From a virus, in UHGV virus genome UHGV-1642828: a DNA stretch of 16,115 bases, one strand, 5' to 3'. The notes under the pieces are model-generated. The model had not been told where the DNA came from. It saw only the letters and a list, made by a program, of their open reading frames with translations, and made no database searches. Each line of letters begins with the position of its first letter. The stretch's first letter is position 1. This document shows, piece by piece, positions 1-16,115 of the stretch. Both the position numbers and the translations under genes were made by a program.

Positions 1-45
1 ACACCTCTCTATTCGTCGGCAGCGTCAGATGTGTATAAGAGACAG
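1..45. other. Illumina Nextera adapter remnant (P5 tail ACAC + 8-nt index CTCTCTAT + TCGTCGGCAGCGTC + Tn5 mosaic end AGATGTGTATAAGAGACAG)
   Basis: Exact match to the recalled Nextera read-1/i5 adapter structure, and its reverse complement sits at the other contig end. Confidence 0.9.
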
Positions 46-428
46 ATGTAACAATCAATTTCTAAAGATACCCCCAACATTGCCAGACAACCGTCAATAA
101 ACCCTTCAGCTTTCTGCAGTCTGATAACAACCTGATTAAGTGATATCCCCAGTTTTACCCCCAACGCCCGTAATGTAACCCCATACACATAATACATTTC
201 CAGTAATTCGTATTGATACGGTTCCTTTTTCTTAAGAACTGTCATCGCAGAGCTAATGATCAGGCCATCGTCATCGCTACATTGCGGGCGGGATTTTACT
301 TTCGAAGGAATTAATCCCTTAAAACCTGCAGCAACAGATGACCATTCCACATCCTCGTGATTATTTGCCACCCATGCCCCCCAACGTTCAAGAACCATTT
401 GAATATCACGCATCAACTTTCTCCACAA
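46..428 (-). CDS. Phage antitermination protein Q-like (lambdoid late-gene antiterminator), 3' end truncated by adapter
   Basis: The ORF 9..428 translates to MWRKLMRDIQMVLERWGAWVANNHEDVEW...RLQKAEGFIDG, resembling recalled Q proteins of Qin/DLP12-type prophages. The last residues [11 protein letters not shown] are translated adapter, so the true C-terminus and stop are missing. It is the last gene of the minus-strand early operon, as expected for Q. Confidence 0.65.
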
Positions 429-6218: not shown

Positions 6219-6355
6219 AGCTTTCTCCTATCTGTAAGTAGTAAAGTTGTTGATAACTTCGATTATACAACTACAACAACTTTTATCACAACTTTTAGAT
6301 GTTGGAAAGCTAAAACATAAAGTTGTAACCTCAATAAAAACGAGGGGGATATGTT
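6219..6355. promoter_or_regulatory. Divergent promoter/operator region (OR-like) between the cro-like gene and cI
   Basis: 137-bp AT-rich spacer with repeated AAGTTGT / ACAACTT half-sites (6244-6259 AAGTTGTTGATAACTT; 6288-6304 ACAACTTTTAGATGTTG; 6320-6326). On the minus strand there is a perfect -10 TATAAT (plus 6262-6267) with TTGTGA as -35 (plus 6286-6291, 18-bp spacer), reading toward the cro-like gene. A possible weak cI promoter lies toward 6356. Confidence 0.6.
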
Positions 6356-7042
6356 GTGAAAACATTGGCAGAAAGACTAAAAAGCGAAAGAGAAAAAGCA
6401 GGAATGAGTCAGGCGCAACTAGCTGAAAAAATTGGGCTTTCACAACAATCCGTAGCGAAAATCGAGAATGGAGAAACTCAACAGCCTCGGAAAATTAAAG
6501 AGATTGCTAAAGTGTTAGGGGTTTCTCAAAAGTGGTTGCAATTGGGCATTGAGGATAACGCGTCTTTCCCAGACCTTGTTGTAAAGGAGGCTGAAAGTAC
6601 AGCATTAGATCCTGACATTTTTGCAAACATTCCAGTCCTAGATGTCGAGTTATCAGCGGGTAATGGATGTTTGGCTGAAATAGTTGAATCAACTGTAGAC
6701 TGGTTCCCGCTAAGAAGGATTGATTTAAGAAAAGCTGGTGTATGTGTCTCCAATGCAAAGATCGTAAAAATTTGGGGCAATAGTTTACTACCTGTACTTA
6801 ACAATGGAGATTTTGTTGCTGTTGATGTTTCCCAAACGGTTCCTATTCGTGATGGGGATCTTTATGCCATACGTGATGGCGTATTACTTAGAGTTAAAAT
6901 ATTGATCAATTTACCTGACGGTGGTCTGATTCTAAGAAGTTTCAATAAAGATGAGTATCCAGATGAAATACTCACCTTCGAAGATAGGCGTTCAAGAATT
7001 CACGTTATAGGTAGAGTATTCTGGTCATCGCGCACTTGGTAA
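6356..7042 (+). CDS. cI: cI-type prophage repressor (HTH XRE domain + LexA-like S24 autopeptidase domain)
   Basis: 228-aa ORF with a GTG start preceded by GAGGGGGA. It has an N-terminal HTH (MSQAQLAEKIGLSQQSVAKIENGE), an Ala-Gly cleavage site (LSAGNG), a Ser in GNSLLP and a Lys in LRVKIL, which is the LexA/cI autocleavage architecture. Confidence 0.85.
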   Translation: MKTLAERLKSEREKAGMSQAQLAEKIGLSQQSVAKIENGETQQPRKIKEIAKVLGVSQKWLQLGIEDNASFPDLVVKEAESTALDPDIFANIPVLDVELSAGNGCLAEIVESTVDWFPLRRIDLRKAGVCVSNAKIVKIWGNSLLPVLNNGDFVAVDVSQTVPIRDGDLYAIRDGVLLRVKILINLPDGGLILRSFNKDEYPDEILTFEDRRSRIHVIGRVFWSSRTW

Positions 7043-7225: not shown

Positions 7226-7290
7226 ACATAAAGTTGTTGACAACAACCAAAACAACAACTAGATTACAACTTAAAGATGTTGCAGTAACG
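7226..7290. promoter_or_regulatory. OL/PL-like operator-promoter for the plus-strand early operon
   Basis: Consensus -35 TTGACA at 7237-7242 and -10 TAGATT at 7260-7265 (17-bp spacer). A perfect 13-bp palindrome TTGTTGACAACAA (7235-7247) overlaps the -35, and the 17-bp element ACAACTTAAAGATGTTG (7266-7282) at the start site matches the OR-region copy at 15 of 17 positions. Confidence 0.55.
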
Positions 7291-7383
7291 AACAGGCAGG
7301 ACGCCCACGAAGTAGCCGCCGGTGGCGTATGAATGACCGGATGATTCGCTGACAGAAAACTTAGGTTGGGGGTAGAGGTTTAC

Positions 7384-7749
7384 ATGAATCATTTATTCAC
7401 ATGCTCATTTTGCGGAGCAACCGAACTGGGAGCGATAAAGATCGTCGCAAAAGGTGGTAAGGACGAACCTGCCATCTGTTCGGAATGCGTAGTCACATGT
7501 GTAGAAAAAATGATCCTGACTAAAAAATCAGAGGCTGAAAAACCAACCTCTGATAACGAAATAATATCAGTCGATAAAAAACTATTTAAAGAGCTTCTTC
7601 AGCTTGTCCTCAACCTTCCTGATTTCGGAAGTAAGCTGGCTGCTGTTGACATTGATAGTAGCTCCACATCGACAAGTGAAACTTTTGTTCGACTTGAGCC
7701 AAGCGATTTTCTTCTTCGTCTTAGTGCCGCACTTAGGGCATGCGGGTAA
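7384..7749 (+). CDS. Small protein with an N-terminal ClpX-type C4 zinc-finger motif
   Basis: Starts MNHLFTCSFCGATELGAIKIVAKGGKDEPAICSECVVTCVEKMI; compare the recalled ClpX N-domain [36 protein letters not shown]. GAGG lies 6 nt upstream of the ATG at 7384; the longer ORF from 7366 uses TTG and has no Shine-Dalgarno. It is the first gene after the PL-like promoter. Confidence 0.55.
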   Translation: MNHLFTCSFCGATELGAIKIVAKGGKDEPAICSECVVTCVEKMILTKKSEAEKPTSDNEIISVDKKLFKELLQLVLNLPDFGSKLAAVDIDSSSTSTSETFVRLEPSDFLLRLSAALRACG

Positions 7750-7872
7750 CGTAATTTCCTGGTTATCAAAAGCGCCCATAAACATCCCTCTTGGTTGTGT
7801 GAGAACACCAAGATACCACCGCGCCTGATGTGGTTAAAAGCAGGCTAAAGCAATAACAAGTAACTCCCTGTT

Positions 7873-7922
7873 CTGGCGGCCCGGTGTTTTCCCGTGTATT
7901 TCCGGTAACCGCCAGCCTTTTT
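7873..7922 (+). terminator. Candidate intrinsic terminator (tL1-like) between the first early gene and rdgC
   Basis: Inverted repeat CTGGCGG/CCGG (7873-7884) with CCGG/CCGCCAG (7902-7915) around a 17-nt loop, followed by CCTTTTTC (7916-7923). Confidence 0.4.
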
Positions 7923-8091
7923 CAGGGCACAACAGAAAAGGGCATCACCGGGCGACGGGCTCATAACCCAATCCACCCGGGCAAAAAGAAAGCGGTCTCT
8001 GCAAGCCGCCGACCAATGCAGGTGCCCTTCTCTGTTGTGTATGGAGAAACTAACTTTTTAGCGCCGGTGCAGAGGCGTTGAGGAACCGAGA

Positions 8092-9009
8092 ATGAACAAT
8101 CCGTTTTTCAAAAATATGTTGGTGTATCGCATTAATCGCGATTTCACCATCAACCAGGAAGAGCTGGAACAGCAGCTTGAACTATTTCGCTTCACTCCAT
8201 GCGGTAGCCAGGATATGGCAAAAACCGGTTGGGTATCACCACTTGGTCAGCTGTCAGATCGCTTGCATCACACTGTCAATAATCAAGTGTTGTTGGTTAT
8301 TCGCCGGGAAGAAAAAATACTGCCATCTCCTGTCATTGCTGAAGAACTGCGCAAGCGTGTGTCGCGTCTGGAATCCGATCAGGGGCGTCGCCTCAAAAAA
8401 ACTGAGAAAGATTCGCTGCGTGATGAAGTGTTGCACTCCCTGCTTCCTCGGGCGTTCTCCAAAAACTCGACTGTTAGTTTGTGGATCAACGTCACCGACG
8501 GTCTGATCATGGTTGATGCAGCCAGCGCTAAACGTGCCGAAGACTCACTGGCCCTGCTTCGTAAAACTCTCGGTTCTCTCCCGGTGGTACCGCTGACTAT
8601 GGAAACGCCGATCGAACTAACTATGACCGAATGGGTTCGTTCCGGTAGTGCGCCTGCTGGCTTTGGCCTGGGTGATGAAGCCGAACTGAAAGCTATTCTT
8701 GAAGATGGTGGTATTGGACGCTTTAAAAAACAGACTCTGGTCAGTGACGAAATTCATGTGCATCTGGAAGCTGGCAAAGTAGTTACAAAGCTGTCTATCG
8801 ACTGGCAACAGCGCATTCAGTTCGTTCTTTGCGATGACGGCAGCATCAAACGCCTTAAGTTCTCTAATGAGATTACAGAACAAAACGACGATATCGACCG
8901 TGAGGATGCGGCTCAGAGGTTCGACGCTGACTTTGTTCTGATGACCGGCGAGCTTATCTCTCTCATTAACGGATTAACAACCTCTCTCGGCGGCGAAGCC
9001 AAGCGATAA
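8092..9009 (+). CDS. rdgC: Recombination-associated protein RdgC homolog
   Basis: 305-aa ORF with long identities to E. coli RdgC ([117 protein letters not shown]). GAGGAA Shine-Dalgarno upstream. Confidence 0.9.
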
Positions 9010-13316: not shown

Positions 13317-13352
13317 TTTTCCCGGGTGCAGCCGGTTTTGATGGAGAAAATT

Positions 13353-13634
13353 ATGAACACCTTGTTTTTACTGATGGCTGAATTCAATACCCCTAACATT
13401 GAACTCTCAGCAGTTAGCCAGAAGTACTTTGGCATGAGTCCAGCCACGGCAGAAGCAAAAGCAAACGCTTGTAAGTTGCCCGTTCCAACATATCGCATCG
13501 GCACATCACAAAAAGCAAAACGTTGCATCAATATTCAGGATCTTGCGGAATACATAGACAAAAGACGAGAAGAAGGACGTATCGAGTGGGAACAGGTCAG
13601 AACAGGCAAACAGAAGGGCAAAGAACATCACTAA
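13353..13634 (+). CDS. PrtN-family / excisionase-like DNA-binding protein
   Basis: ORF track gives 13326..13634; GGAGA 5 nt upstream favours the ATG at 13353 (MNTLFLLMAEF...). It is the last gene of the early-left operon, followed directly by a terminator. Family assignment is from recalled PrtN-type excisionase resemblance. Confidence 0.5.
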   Translation: MNTLFLLMAEFNTPNIELSAVSQKYFGMSPATAEAKANACKLPVPTYRIGTSQKAKRCINIQDLAEYIDKRREEGRIEWEQVRTGKQKGKEHH

Positions 13635-13636
13635 AG

Positions 13637-13663
13637 AAAAAACCCGCCTGAAGGCGGGTTTTC
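13637..13663. terminator. Bidirectional rho-independent terminator
   Basis: AAAAAA-CCCGCC-TGAA-GGCGGG-TTTTC: a perfect 6-bp GC stem (13643-13648 / 13653-13658) with a 4-nt loop, flanked by an A-run and a T-run. It terminates both the plus-strand operon and the convergent small minus-strand gene. Confidence 0.75.
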
Positions 13664-13681
13664 AAAAAGCACCAGCTATGA

Positions 13682-13855
13682 TCATGCTGCTTTGCGACGA
13701 CGAAGCTTACCCTGCTGCTCTTTACCAGAGACAGTAGCGTGAGTGAACGCATTAGGAGCAGCCTTCATCAGAACTTCAACAGCAGCACCCATACCTGCGA
13801 ATGCTTTCATTGTGTCGAACTTAACCTGTGGCTTGGTTGCTTTTTGATCTTTCAT
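13682..13855 (-). CDS. Small hypothetical protein (57 aa)
   Basis: Not in the ORF track (below its length cutoff). ATG at 13855-13853 with GGGAG about 8 nt upstream. Translates MKDQKATKPQVKFDTMKAFAGMGAAVEVLMKAAPNAFTHATVSGKEQQGKLRRRKAA and ends just before the bidirectional terminator. Confidence 0.4.
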   Translation of the reverse strand: MKDQKATKPQVKFDTMKAFAGMGAAVEVLMKAAPNAFTHATVSGKEQQGKLRRRKAA

Positions 13856-14051
13856 AGAAAACTCCCGAGACAGTAAAGGCGTCTCTAACCCTCTCTTTAA
13901 AGCTAGCTTGTTTCGCTAACTTATGCCAATCGATCATGTCGATTGGTGACATCGTTTCTTAGTAGTTTAAGCACAAAACGACTGCCATAGATGTACCTTT
14001 AAGGTAATCTGGACGGGTATCCTACAATTTGTAGACCCTTCTCGTCTATAC

Positions 14052-14588
14052 CTACTGAGCAAATTTAAGAAAGATATCCTGCAGCTCATCAATGACTGCA
14101 GACATCACATAACCGCACTGTTCCATGCGGAAACCAAAAGACTCGTAATACTGCACCAGTTCTGGTACTGGCTCTACAATGTGGACAACTTTACATTCAA
14201 CAGCTTTACAAAATATAAAAGCACTCATAAGAGTGAGTAAAACCATGCGCCCTTTCAATGGGTGAGATTCATCTTCTCTAGAAAACCTTTCGATCATATG
14301 GATACGAAAGATGTTTTCTTCAACCCCATAAACACAAATTGCTGCTCCTGATGGTATTCCCTGAACCCGACCTTGCTGAACAAGTTTTATGCAGAACTCA
14401 TACTTTTCTCTGGAGTTGCCATAGGTGCTTAACGCATAGTCCCATTCAAGCTCACCATAGCCACCACACAGAATCTTGTAATCATCATCACTGAGCGGAC
14501 CAACAGCAAGAGGTAAGCCGACATGATCAATAATCAACTGGATATTGTTACGTACTGATTGACCTATCTCGTCCAGGGTAAGCATCAT
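14052..14588 (-). CDS. Hypothetical protein (178 aa), weak GNAT-like resemblance
   Basis: Isolated ORF in the AT-rich block; two adjacent ATG codons at the start. A minus-strand TATAAT (plus 14618-14623) lies about 25 nt upstream. It contains QQGRVQGIPSG and a C-terminal VQYYESFGF, loosely reminiscent of GNAT motifs A and B. Confidence 0.45.
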   Translation of the reverse strand: MMLTLDEIGQSVRNNIQLIIDHVGLPLAVGPLSDDDYKILCGGYGELEWDYALSTYGNSREKYEFCIKLVQQGRVQGIPSGAAICVYGVEENIFRIHMIERFSREDESHPLKGRMVLLTLMSAFIFCKAVECKVVHIVEPVPELVQYYESFGFRMEQCGYVMSAVIDELQDIFLKFAQ

Positions 14589-15126
14589 GGCCTCTCAAGC
14601 GGAACACTAAAAGTCGCATTATATCTCATTCTTAAGCCGCGTATGGATTACACCTTGAAATGAAAACGCCGGGTTCCCAATAGGCTCCCACAGAGTGTAT
14701 AACTACTTGTTTTTCAACAACGGTACATCCTATCGAGCATTGGTGCAACGCTAAACCGACCACTCCAGTGAACGTCAGTTTTTTCAGGCATTGCGCTGGT
14801 TTGGTTGATTTTTTGCATTTCAGAATTACCGTGCATTTTCAAATGTAGAGATTATTTTATCGATATATCATGGGGTTATGTTATTCAGCATCACTGTTCA
14901 GGAGGCTCAATAACGGGGTACTATACCATAACAACAGGAAGCGCCTGTCTCATTGCAAAAGAAAATTGAGATCCTCTCAAGGCATGAAGCTCTCACGAAG
15001 TGATGGAAATAATCTTATTAGCCGTTAGCTTTGTTAAGGCCAATGATAAACAATCCAGGTTCGACGATAAATAAAAATCACACATTAAACTCCGGTGATA
15101 TCTCTCCCTGCTAATAGCACTGATAG

Positions 15127-15162
15127 AGAAAAAAAGAACCCAATAAGCATTGGGTTCTTTTA
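15127..15162 (-). terminator. Rho-independent terminator downstream of the 248-aa gene
   Basis: Perfect 10-bp stem AGAACCCAAT / ATTGGGTTCT (15135-15144 / 15149-15158) with a 4-nt loop. The plus-strand A-run at 15127-15135 gives a long U-run on the minus-strand transcript. Confidence 0.65.
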
Positions 15163-15198
15163 TGTAATGCCTTCCATACCATCGAAGAACTTCACATA

Positions 15199-15945
15199 TT
15201 ATTTCTCCGATTTAACCCCGAATAAATCATAAATTAATTTAGAAGTGTCTGTATATATTTTAATCTTTTCCTTTGAGTTTGGGTCAAACGACTTAGCAAA
15301 GTCAATTAATTTCGGTGCAGCATCTCGCATTTTGCTTAAAATATCAGGGGCGAGCTTTCCTTCATTCACCAGATGTGACATCTTATCCAGATAGCCATCA
15401 AAATTCATTTCTCCCCCATCTGCCAGACGCTTCATCTCTCCCAGGTACTTCTTCATATCACGTTGAGATAACTCTTCAAACTGAGCTGTCAGATAGTTCT
15501 CATTATCATCATTAATATTCACTTTTTCTGCTCCTGCTAAATCTGTGTAGGCACTAGAGTATGAAAGTGAAATCAACAGCGAAGCGAATAATTTTAAGCT
15601 GTTGTCATCATATTCCTGACATGCATTAACAAACGTTAAAAAACCAGAACCTATTGCTTGCAAATGTATATTCGCTAAAGGTTCATTATCTTTAGATTCC
15701 TCATAAAAAAGCTGAACCGTGGAGGGAAGGCCATTCTTGGTTTCTACATCAAAAGTATATCGTTCTATGGGCGTTGCATCTTTATTATCCTCAGGATTAC
15801 ATATACTATTAATCGCAAAATGAAAAATAGCCCGATCAACAACTGATGCAATAAATTCACGATCGTTTAATTCCTCATCAGTGCAATCTCCAATATACTT
15901 ATTAACCCACTCTTTGAGATTAGTTATTTGCTCAATTAAAAACAC
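15199..15945 (-). CDS. Hypothetical protein (248 aa), AT-rich cargo gene
   Basis: Long ORF in strongly AT-rich sequence with its own downstream terminator. No family recognised from sequence. Confidence 0.5.
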
Positions 15946-16071
15946 ATTTTTTTACGTGCATGCCATAAATTATGAGTGATTCTTTGAATAAACAAATCTA
16001 TTTTTGCAATAATTATATCCCGATGACGCAGCGCTGAATAATCAATAGACTTACCATATATATTATTTAAT

Positions 16072-16115
16072 CTGTCTCTTATACACATCTGACGCTGCCG
16101 ACGAATAGAGAGGTG
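16072..16115. other. Illumina Nextera adapter remnant, reverse complement (CTGTCTCTTATACACATCT + GACGCTGCCGACGA + ATAGAGAG + GTG)
   Basis: Exact reverse complement of the adapter at positions 1-45, minus one terminal base. Confidence 0.9.

What the first reader, a model, noticed from the sequence alone, without database searches (positions are those of the whole stretch)
7384..7749. Stand-alone ClpX-type zinc-finger protein as first gene of the early-left operon
The N-terminus (CSFCG ... ICSECVVTC) mimics the ClpX N-terminal zinc-binding domain, which mediates adaptor and substrate recognition (for example lambda O and SspB-delivered substrates). A phage-encoded copy lacking the AAA+ module could act as a decoy or competitor that modulates ClpXP proteolysis of phage or host proteins. 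It sits in the position of lambda N, directly after the PL-like promoter, and is followed by a terminator-like hairpin.
Basis: partly seen in the sequence, partly recalled or inferred. Interest (0 to 1): 0.7.

Follow-up and report, generated by a model that had tools for sequence, protein, structure and literature searches.

The report
Phage early gene copying ClpX's zinc finger
A prophage gene switched on first after induction encodes a small protein whose front half copies the zinc-finger docking domain of the host ClpX protease; databases already name it, but its function is untested and it is an optional insert, not a lambda-N equivalent.

Summary
ORF 7384-7749 (+) encodes 121 aa. Residues 1-45 are a genuine ClpX-N-domain-type C4 zinc finger: Pfam PF06689 E 7.6e-6, a phage-only family profile hits only ClpX N-domains in the PDB, and the AF2 model superposes on 2DS5-2DS8 at about 1.5 A. 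The four Cys plus F9 (ClpX F16) are invariant. The gene follows a repressor-controlled PL-like promoter. RefSeq already names the identical protein "ClpX C4-type zinc finger protein" (E. coli Nissle prophage), and no functional study was found.

- Residues 58-121 are a separate, uncharacterised module. Elsewhere it stands alone or is fused to three unrelated N-terminal families.
- The gene is a 464-nt optional cassette (7350-7813). Related functional phages have an empty slot, so it is not an N analogue.
- The real terminator-like hairpin lies 124 nt downstream, among conserved unannotated leader RNA structures.

The decoy or competitor idea for ClpXP is the best available mechanism. Relatives of 54-66 aa consist of little but the finger, so they can only act by binding. 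It remains inference, at about 0.35 to 0.4. The finding is moderately interesting.

The parts
7229..7282 (+). PL-like promoter (TTGACA 7237-7242, 17-nt spacer, TAGATT 7260-7265) overlapped by operator-like repeats (palindrome GTTGTTGACAACAAC 7233-7247; CAACTTAAAGATGTTG 7267-7282)
   Evidence: Promoter scan gives 10 of 12 matches. The 12-mers TAAAGTTGTTGA and ACATAAAGTTGT, and the palindrome CAACTTnnAGATGTTG, recur in the cro-cI intergenic region at 6242, 6315 and 6289-6304. The cI-type repressor (HTH_3 + Peptidase_S24) lies at 6356-7042 on the same strand.
7286..7349 (+). Conserved PL-leader element with a 5-bp hairpin (7319-7323 pairs with 7336-7340, 12-nt loop GGCGUAUGAAUG). It is not part of the cassette.
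   Evidence: It is 86-100% identical in phages with unrelated immunity regions and unrelated downstream genes. All 40 cells pair, and two of five pairs show double-sided changes with three pair types each. phiNP carries a fourth stem variant. No Rfam match.
7350..7813 (+). Inserted accessory cassette: ribosome-binding site, the 121-aa gene and a 3' hairpin
   Evidence: Empty-site comparison: in phage Flotzy the leader ...GATGATTCGC is followed after 9 nt by ACCACCGCGCCTGATG..., which is window 7814 onward. ST64B, LLS and phiNP have no ORF in the slot, and SfV has an unrelated 98-aa ORF.
7384..7749 (+). CDS, 121 aa plus stop. It is identical to RefSeq WP_016240143.1 'ClpX C4-type zinc finger protein'.
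   Evidence: PHROG 20296 (unknown function) matches at E 3e-68.
7384..7518 (+). ClpX-N-domain-type zinc finger (residues 1-45). Zn ligands are C7, C10, C32 and C35. F9 corresponds to ClpX F16. The helix starts at residue 33.
   Evidence: dN/dS is 0.10-0.26 against relatives.
7519..7554 (+). Linker, residues 46-57 (TKKSEAEKPTSD), predicted disordered
   Evidence: pLDDT is below 50 for residues 45-57 in the full-length model. Linker sequences differ between fusions.
7555..7746 (+). C-terminal module (residues 58-121; ..VDKxLFKxLLQLVLNLPDxGS...LEPSDFLLRLSAALRACG), uncharacterised, predicted helix-helix-strand-strand-helix
   Evidence: It is found alone or fused to AlpA-HTH, phrog_1744 and phrog_1273/PF27050 N-termini. 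No Pfam or PDB relative. dN/dS is 0.47-0.68. The model has low confidence.
7789..7813 (+). Hairpin at the 3' end of the cassette (9 bp, no U-tract). It travels with the C-module gene.
   Evidence: Fold is -9.9 kcal/mol, z -2.75. The 3' flank is conserved with C-module genes even at a different genomic site, L016.
7873..7922 (+). Intrinsic-terminator-like hairpin (CUGGCGG...CCGCCAG, then CC and U5). It belongs to the conserved backbone, not to the cassette.
   Evidence: Fold is -18.3 kcal/mol, z -2.7. Flotzy has CUGGCUG...CAGCCAG plus CUUUUU, a compensatory change. The scanner missed it because the loop exceeds 8 nt.
7927..8040 (+). Conserved structured RNA-like element (19-bp outer stem with inner hairpins) upstream of rdgC
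   Evidence: Fold of 7920-8050 is -54.9 kcal/mol, z -4.36, with 0 of 200 shuffles as stable. The 55-nt core 7928-7982 occurs in 2520 of 5426 complete E. coli genomes and is not annotated as an RNA gene in any of the 25 records listed. No Rfam match.

Best explanation
Identity is shown with high confidence. This is an optional immediate-early gene cassette inserted into the leader of the early-left (PL) transcript of an e14/ST64B/SfV-type lambdoid prophage, upstream of the first terminator-like signal. It should therefore be made as soon as the repressor is lost, without any antitermination. The protein has two modules: a genuine ClpX-N-domain-type C4 zinc finger (residues 1-45) and, after a disordered linker, an uncharacterised 64-residue module. 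Mechanism is inferred, at roughly 0.35-0.4. The zinc finger acts purely by binding, as a free copy of the ClpX docking domain. It would compete for the peptides that normally dock on the ClpX N-domain: adaptor tails of the SspB/RssB type, or N-domain-dependent substrates such as lambda-O-like initiators, MuA or FtsZ. This would shift what ClpXP degrades early after induction or infection. The C-terminal module is a separable unit, either an oligomerisation or a second binding function, that has been fused to several different first-gene products.
For: Homology and fold of the finger. Invariant in the combined alignment of the phage family and ClpX-like repeats: C7, F9, C10, I31, C32, C35; S8 is also invariant within the phage family alone. 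F9 corresponds to ClpX F16. [quoted passage not shown] The ClpX strand motif KLIAG is kept as KIVAKG. The finger is under strong purifying selection, dN/dS 0.10-0.26 with saturated dS. Many relatives are only 54-66 aa, a finger plus a short variable tail. Such proteins can only work by binding or dimerising, which fits a competitor. In every case with enough context, four distinct family members besides this window, the gene lies 120-240 bp downstream of the S24 repressor gene on the same strand. That means obligatory early expression. The ClpX N-domain dimerises independently and is needed for FtsZ, MuA and adaptor recognition (PMC5415555). From my own knowledge, not checked here: isolated ZBD added in trans blocks ClpXP degradation of lambda O and MuA in vitro (Wojtyra et al. 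2003). Lambda cIII (FtsH inhibitor) and RexB (reported to protect O from ClpXP) are precedents for protease modulators in this part of the genome.
Against: There is no experimental or co-evolutionary link to ClpXP. The position equivalent to ClpX I46 is Lys in this protein, although it is hydrophobic in most relatives. The phage family has a 3-residue insertion in the hairpin loop and Ala in place of ClpX Y34. The gene is rare (39 of 5426 complete E. coli genomes) and dispensable, because related phages have empty slots. The same C-module is fused to an AlpA-type DNA-binding domain and to two other unrelated N-termini in the same slot, so the slot is not dedicated to ClpX biology. The Pfam score is 0.8 bits under the curated cut-off.
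Confidence: 0.38

Rival explanations
1. Docking rather than decoy. The phage finger heterodimerises with the N-domain of a ClpX subunit, since the ClpX ZBD is a constitutive dimer. This would either poison adaptor docking or tether the C-terminal module and whatever it binds to ClpXP, acting as a phage-made adaptor or anti-adaptor.
For: The helix after the second CxxC keeps a hydrophobic pattern, CV-x-x-[LM]-I. The N-domain dimerises on its own (PMC5415555). A divergent relative (P0016, 46% identity) keeps both modules fused, which suggests they work together.
Against: Most family members have no second domain to deliver. The C-module also works in fusions that have no finger.
Confidence: 0.15
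2. The fold is borrowed but the target is unrelated to ClpXP. The finger is a small dimerisation or peptide-binding scaffold, and the cassette is a host-takeover, anti-defence or exclusion gene. Its specificity would lie elsewhere, possibly in the faster-evolving C-module.
For: It is an optional cassette in a hypervariable first-gene slot that holds unrelated cargo in other phages. The C-module has dN/dS of 0.47-0.68 and is fused promiscuously, as is typical of arms-race accessory genes. No PADLOC, Pfam or PDB clue exists for the C-module.
Against: The finger keeps ClpX-specific features beyond the Zn ligands (CSFCG, K-I/L-I/V-A, ICxECV..C and F9) and is under strong constraint. Generic zinc ribbons match the family profile only at the first knuckle.
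Confidence: 0.3
3. Functional analogue of lambda N. The protein binds the conserved leader hairpin (7319-7340) and lets RNA polymerase read through the terminator-like hairpin at 7873-7922.
For: The layout resembles PL-nutL-N-tL1: a conserved covarying hairpin, then the first gene, then a terminator-like stem. Some AlpA-family proteins are antiterminators (my own knowledge), and an AlpA-type domain replaces the finger in sister prophages.
Against: The leader hairpin and terminator are present in ST64B, phiNP and Flotzy, which have no gene in the slot, and in SfV, which has an unrelated ORF. There is no arginine-rich motif. The finger-only relative P0029 has a different leader.
Confidence: 0.05
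4. A decaying or accidental gene fusion with no function
For: The gene is rare and arose by fusion of two families that are otherwise separate. An antisense terminator-like hairpin sits exactly in the linker, as if this was once an intergenic spacer.
Against: The ORF is intact with a good Shine-Dalgarno sequence. It is at least 99% identical in 39 genomes and in one phage record. The finger shows strong purifying selection. An independent divergent fusion exists (P0016).
Confidence: 0.07

Closest known systems
[quoted passage not shown]
   Same: It has the same CxxC...CxxC ligand set, the CSFCG and ICxECVxxC motifs, the F16 equivalent and the strand-strand-helix fold. Rmsd is about 1.5 A over 40 residues.
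   Different: It is not attached to an AAA+ ATPase. It has a 3-residue insertion in the hairpin loop, Lys at the I46-equivalent position and Ala at the Y34-equivalent position. It is fused to an unrelated C-terminal module and is phage-encoded.
Stand-alone 'ClpX C4-type zinc finger protein' family of enterobacterial prophages (PHROG 5259 and 20296; e.g. Salmonella phage 118970_sal3 gp052)
   Same: It has the same finger at 45-78% identity, and the same genomic slot directly after the repressor gene and PL.
   Different: Those proteins are 54-95 aa with short variable tails. This one carries the additional 64-residue C-module. None has a tested function.
Phage-encoded modulators of host AAA+ proteases: lambda cIII (FtsH), lambda RexB (ClpXP/ClpP), T4 PinA and T7 gp4.5 (Lon). 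This comparison rests on my own knowledge.
   Same: These are small early or immunity-region proteins proposed to change host proteolysis in the phage's favour. cIII also lies in the PL operon.
   Different: There is no sequence or fold relationship. None of them works by copying a domain of the protease itself. The function of the present protein is untested.
Lambda N / nutL / tL1 arrangement
   Same: It is the first gene after PL, preceded by a conserved RNA hairpin and followed by a terminator-like hairpin.
   Different: It has no arginine-rich motif, and the gene is dispensable while the RNA elements are conserved without it.

Membership tests
ClpX N-terminal zinc-binding domain (PF06689) | Four Cys Zn ligands arranged as CxxC, about 20 residues, then CxxC | tested here: met
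   C7, C10, C32 and C35 are invariant in 19 aligned domains.
ClpX N-terminal zinc-binding domain (PF06689) | Significant match to the family model | tested here: inconclusive
   The single sequence scores 26.2 bits against a 27-bit gathering score, E 7.6e-6. A phage-only family profile hits only ClpX N-domains, E 1.6e-6 to 5.7e-5. Relatives carry precomputed PF06689 hits.
ClpX N-terminal zinc-binding domain (PF06689) | ZBD fold (short strands plus C-terminal helix) | tested here: met
   AF2 gives pLDDT 83.8. The Foldseek top 7 are all ClpX N-domains; for the six E. coli ZBD chains TM (target) is 0.77-0.81 and rmsd 1.4-1.6 A. Caveat: the alignment used included ClpX-like repeats.
ClpX N-terminal zinc-binding domain (PF06689) | Hydrophobic adaptor/substrate pocket (ClpX F16, I46) | tested here: inconclusive
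   The F16 equivalent (F9) is invariant. The I46 equivalent is K42 here but T/V/I/A/L in relatives.
ClpX N-terminal zinc-binding domain (PF06689) | Zn binding, homodimerisation, and binding of SspB-tail or lambda-O peptides | not testable with these tools
   This needs metal analysis, SEC/NMR or binding assays. No multimer prediction was available.
ClpX ATPase (NCBIfam NF003745 / TIGR00382) | AAA+ unfoldase module with IGF loop | tested here: not met
   The protein is 121 aa. It scores 20.7 and 14.8 bits against cut-offs of 359 and 371, and only the N-terminus matches.
Lambda-N-type antiterminator | Arginine-rich RNA-binding motif, and a gene conserved together with its nut-like site | tested here: not met
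   No arginine-rich motif is present (sequence). The leader hairpin is conserved in phages with an empty slot or an unrelated gene.
Moron-like accessory cassette | Present or absent between conserved flanks in related genomes | tested here: met
   Flotzy has the empty site, and the window has 464 extra nt at 7350-7813.
Moron-like accessory cassette | Own promoter and terminator | tested here: not met
   No promoter-like site lies between PL and the ATG, and the 3' hairpin lacks a U-tract. The gene relies on PL.

The most novel reading that the evidence does not exclude
Temperate enterobacterial phages carry, as an immediate-early cassette, a free-standing copy of the substrate and adaptor docking domain of ClpX. 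It reprogrammes host ClpXP in trans by domain mimicry of the protease itself. Possible effects are stabilising the phage initiator or other N-domain-dependent substrates, or blocking SspB/RssB delivery. In this variant it is coupled to a new, promiscuously fused 64-residue module. That would be a new class of phage protease modulator.
Probability: 0.3. Interest if true: 0.7.

Novelty: new variant of a known kind. Interest (0 to 1): 0.45.

Why it matters
ClpXP controls the lambda O-type initiator, MuA, sigma-S, FtsZ, SOS proteins and several antitoxins. A phage protein that copies the ClpX docking domain would be a simple, transferable way to retune all N-domain-dependent proteolysis at the moment of induction. 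It would also be a compact tool for separating adaptor-dependent from adaptor-independent ClpXP degradation. The gene sits in the inducible prophage of the probiotic and chassis strain E. coli Nissle 1917, so it is easy to test. As it stands, it is a correctly recognised but already annotated domain with no functional evidence.

Tried and rejected
- **Rfam:** neither the gathering-threshold scan nor the permissive scan matched the leader or the intergenic structures.
- **HK022 put RNAs:** tested as an explanation for the conserved leader RNAs. The HK022 immunity and early regions share no similarity.
- **Rac YdaE ('zinc-binding protein' in the Rac PL operon):** tested as a relative. Its sequence is not ClpX-type.
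- **PADLOC defence models:** nothing significant for the protein or its module relatives.
- **C-module:** no Pfam or PDB sequence relative.
- **Idea that the C-terminal ALRACG mimics the SspB tail (ALRVVK; ZBD motif LKxh, PMC7226468):** rejected as unsupported. The Arg is replaced in LGACR variants, distant homologues extend past this point, and the segment is predicted helical.
- **Idea that the finger co-occurs with a ClpX-type N-degron on the phage initiator (MSTKL...):** the same N-terminus is present whatever occupies the slot, so there is no specific association.
- **Literature:** searches for stand-alone or phage ClpX zinc fingers found no functional study. Two ClpX ZBD papers (Wojtyra 2003, Thibault 2006) are not held.

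Full report
**What is there.** The window is the immunity and early region of a lambdoid prophage. On the minus strand lie a Q antiterminator, DUF968, an Ant/KilA-type gene, RusA, a methylase, an HTH_36 replication initiator, a CII (CP76) gene and a Cro-like gene. On the plus strand lie an HTH_3 + Peptidase_S24 repressor at 6356-7042, then the finding, then rdgC at 8092-9009 and further early-left genes. ORF 7384-7749 starts with ATG, has GAGG 5 nt upstream and encodes 121 aa.

A TTGACA-17-TAGATT promoter lies at 7237-7265. It overlaps palindromes and 12-mers that recur in the cro-cI intergenic region. This is therefore a repressor-controlled PL, and the ORF is the first gene behind it.

**Is the N-terminus a ClpX-type zinc finger?** Yes.
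- Pfam zf-C4_ClpX matches residues 6-41 at E 7.6e-6, 0.8 bits under the curated cut-off. The two NCBIfam ClpX equivalogs match only at their N-terminus.
- With the single sequence, the six best PDB hits are all ClpX, although weakly.
- A profile made only from stand-alone phage relatives finds ClpX N-domains as its seven best PDB hits, E 1.6e-6 to 5.7e-5. The next hits are unrelated zinc ribbons that match only the first knuckle, at E >= 0.01.
- AF2 on residues 1-53 with a 19-sequence alignment gave pLDDT 83.8. Foldseek put 2DS5, 2DS6, 2DS7, 2DS8 and a human CLPX model in the first seven places. For the six E. coli ZBD chains rmsd is 1.4-1.6 A and TM 0.77-0.81 on the target. The alignment contained ClpX-like repeats, so this test is not fully independent.
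- C7, F9, C10, I31, C32 and C35 are invariant.
- F9 is ClpX F16. [quoted passage not shown] The region around F16 and I46 overlaps the lambda-O binding site and is where SspB and RssB bind (PMC7804408).
- The I46 equivalent is Lys here but hydrophobic or small in most relatives. The family also has a 3-residue loop insertion.
- dN/dS for the finger is 0.10-0.26 with saturated dS.

Homologue searches show that residues 58-121 form a separate unit. This C-module occurs in several forms:
- alone, in proteins of 73-96 aa;
- fused to an AlpA-type HTH (P0004, P0010);
- fused to a phrog_1744 N-terminus (P0006, P0008, P0011);
- fused to a phrog_1273/PF27050 N-terminus (P0007);
- fused to a zinc finger (this protein, and the 46%-identical P0016).

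Each N-terminal partner is a stand-alone phage family in its own right. The C-module has no Pfam or PDB relative. The full-length model is poor (pLDDT 57.8) with a disordered linker. Its dN/dS is 0.47-0.68. Conversely, the finger occurs in many proteins of 54-95 aa with short, variable tails.

**Position and dispensability.** Finger-family members of 45-70% identity always lie 120-240 bp after an S24 repressor gene on the same strand. AlpA, phrog_1744 and PF27050 fusions occupy the same slot.

The slot is nevertheless optional.
- ST64B, LLS and phiNP have no ORF there.
- SfV and an O157 prophage have unrelated small ORFs.
- In phage Flotzy the conserved leader is joined, after 9 nt, directly to the sequence that follows window 7813.

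Window 7350-7813 is therefore a 464-nt inserted cassette containing the RBS, the gene and a 3' hairpin. That hairpin and flank travel with the C-module even to a different genomic site. This rules out a lambda-N-like essential role. The gene occurs in 39 of 5426 complete E. coli genomes, all at least 99% identical and many of them Nissle 1917 derivatives, and in one phage record. RefSeq already names it 'ClpX C4-type zinc finger protein'. PHROGs lists it as unknown function. I found no functional literature.

**Backbone RNA signals around the cassette.**
- Upstream, 7286-7349 is 86-100% conserved across phages with different immunity regions. It holds a 5-bp hairpin with convincing covariation.
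- Downstream, the hairpin next to the gene (7789-7813) has no U-tract.
- A stem followed by U5 lies at 7873-7922, and Flotzy has a compensatory change in that stem.
- A highly stable structure lies at 7927-8040, z -4.36. Its 55-nt core is present in 46% of complete E. coli genomes and is not annotated as an RNA gene in any of the 25 records listed.
- None of these matches Rfam or the HK022 early region.

The cassette thus sits before the first terminator-like signal, so its product should be immediate-early.

**Mechanism.** Shown: the domain identity, the early position, the purifying selection and the cassette nature. Inferred: what the protein does.

Relatives that are little more than the finger can only act by binding or dimerising, and the finger keeps ClpX-specific surface features. 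The best-supported model is therefore competition for ligands of the ClpX N-domain, meaning adaptor tails or N-domain-dependent substrates. The close alternative is heterodimerisation with ClpX itself. There are precedents from my own knowledge: isolated ZBD inhibits lambda O and MuA degradation in vitro, and lambda cIII and RexB modulate host proteases.

Several facts count against over-confidence: the K42 substitution, the loop insertion, the rarity of the gene, and the fact that the same slot and the same C-module serve unrelated N-terminal domains. I put about 0.38 on the decoy model, 0.15 on docking or adaptor action, 0.30 on a target unrelated to ClpXP, 0.05 on N-like antitermination and about 0.07 on no function.

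**Verdict.** It is a new variant of a known domain: detached from its ATPase, phage-borne and fused to a new module. The domain call itself is already in public annotation. Interest is moderate.

Noticed in passing
window 7286-7349 (hairpin 7319-7323 / 7336-7340): A conserved PL-leader element is shared at 86-100% identity by phages with unrelated immunity regions and unrelated first genes: ST64B, SfV, phiNP, Flotzy, and the Nissle and Salmonella prophages. Its 5-bp hairpin with a 12-nt conserved loop shows double-sided compensatory changes (GC/CG/UA and UA/AU/GC). It has no Rfam family and is unannotated. It may be a nut- or put-like or other regulatory RNA site. LLS and the P0029 prophages lack it.
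   Followed up: partly
window 7873-7922 and 7927-8040: A terminator-like hairpin (with a compensatory change in Flotzy) is followed by a very stable structure of about 115 nt (z -4.36) upstream of rdgC or yfdP. The 55-nt core 7928-7982 is present in 2520 of 5426 complete E. coli genomes at about 91% identity. In the 25 records listed it is unannotated or lies under small hypothetical ORFs, and it has no Rfam match. Functional phages such as LLS, phiNP and ST64B have 600-1000 nt of such non-coding leader between cI and the first early-left gene.
   Followed up: partly
window 7517-7590, minus strand: Inside the linker-coding part of the gene, the antisense strand has a promoter-like site (TTTAAA-18-TATTAT with TG, 7590-7561). 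It is followed immediately by a 12-bp hairpin plus T5 (7554-7527). The hairpin lies exactly at the junction of the two protein modules, as if the linker derives from a former intergenic spacer.
   Followed up: no
window 1-47, minus strand: The left end of the window is a sequencing adapter. CTGTCTCTTATACACATCTGACGCTGCCGACGA is the Nextera transposase adapter (recognised from my own knowledge), followed by ATAGAGAG, an index-like sequence. It truncates and falsely extends the Q antiterminator ORF (9-428), so this is a contig-end artefact.
   Followed up: yes
window 13650-16115: After the PrtN/excisionase-like gene (13326-13634) there is no integrase ORF, unlike the Nissle prophage. GC content drops to 0.35-0.42 instead. 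Two minus-strand ORFs follow: 178 aa with no Pfam hit, and 248 aa matching DUF2713. This may be the prophage end or a different island.
   Followed up: partly
proteins P0031, P0032, P0038, P0039 (metagenomic; not in the window): Some proteins consist of 2 to 6 tandem ClpX-type zinc fingers with no AAA+ module. This is another detached use of the domain.
   Followed up: no
L002-L004 6001-6393 (sister prophages): In the same slot, an AlpA-type HTH is fused to the same C-module, with the same leader element upstream. Some AlpA-family proteins are processive antiterminators (my own knowledge), so this variant may be worth testing for that role.
   Followed up: no
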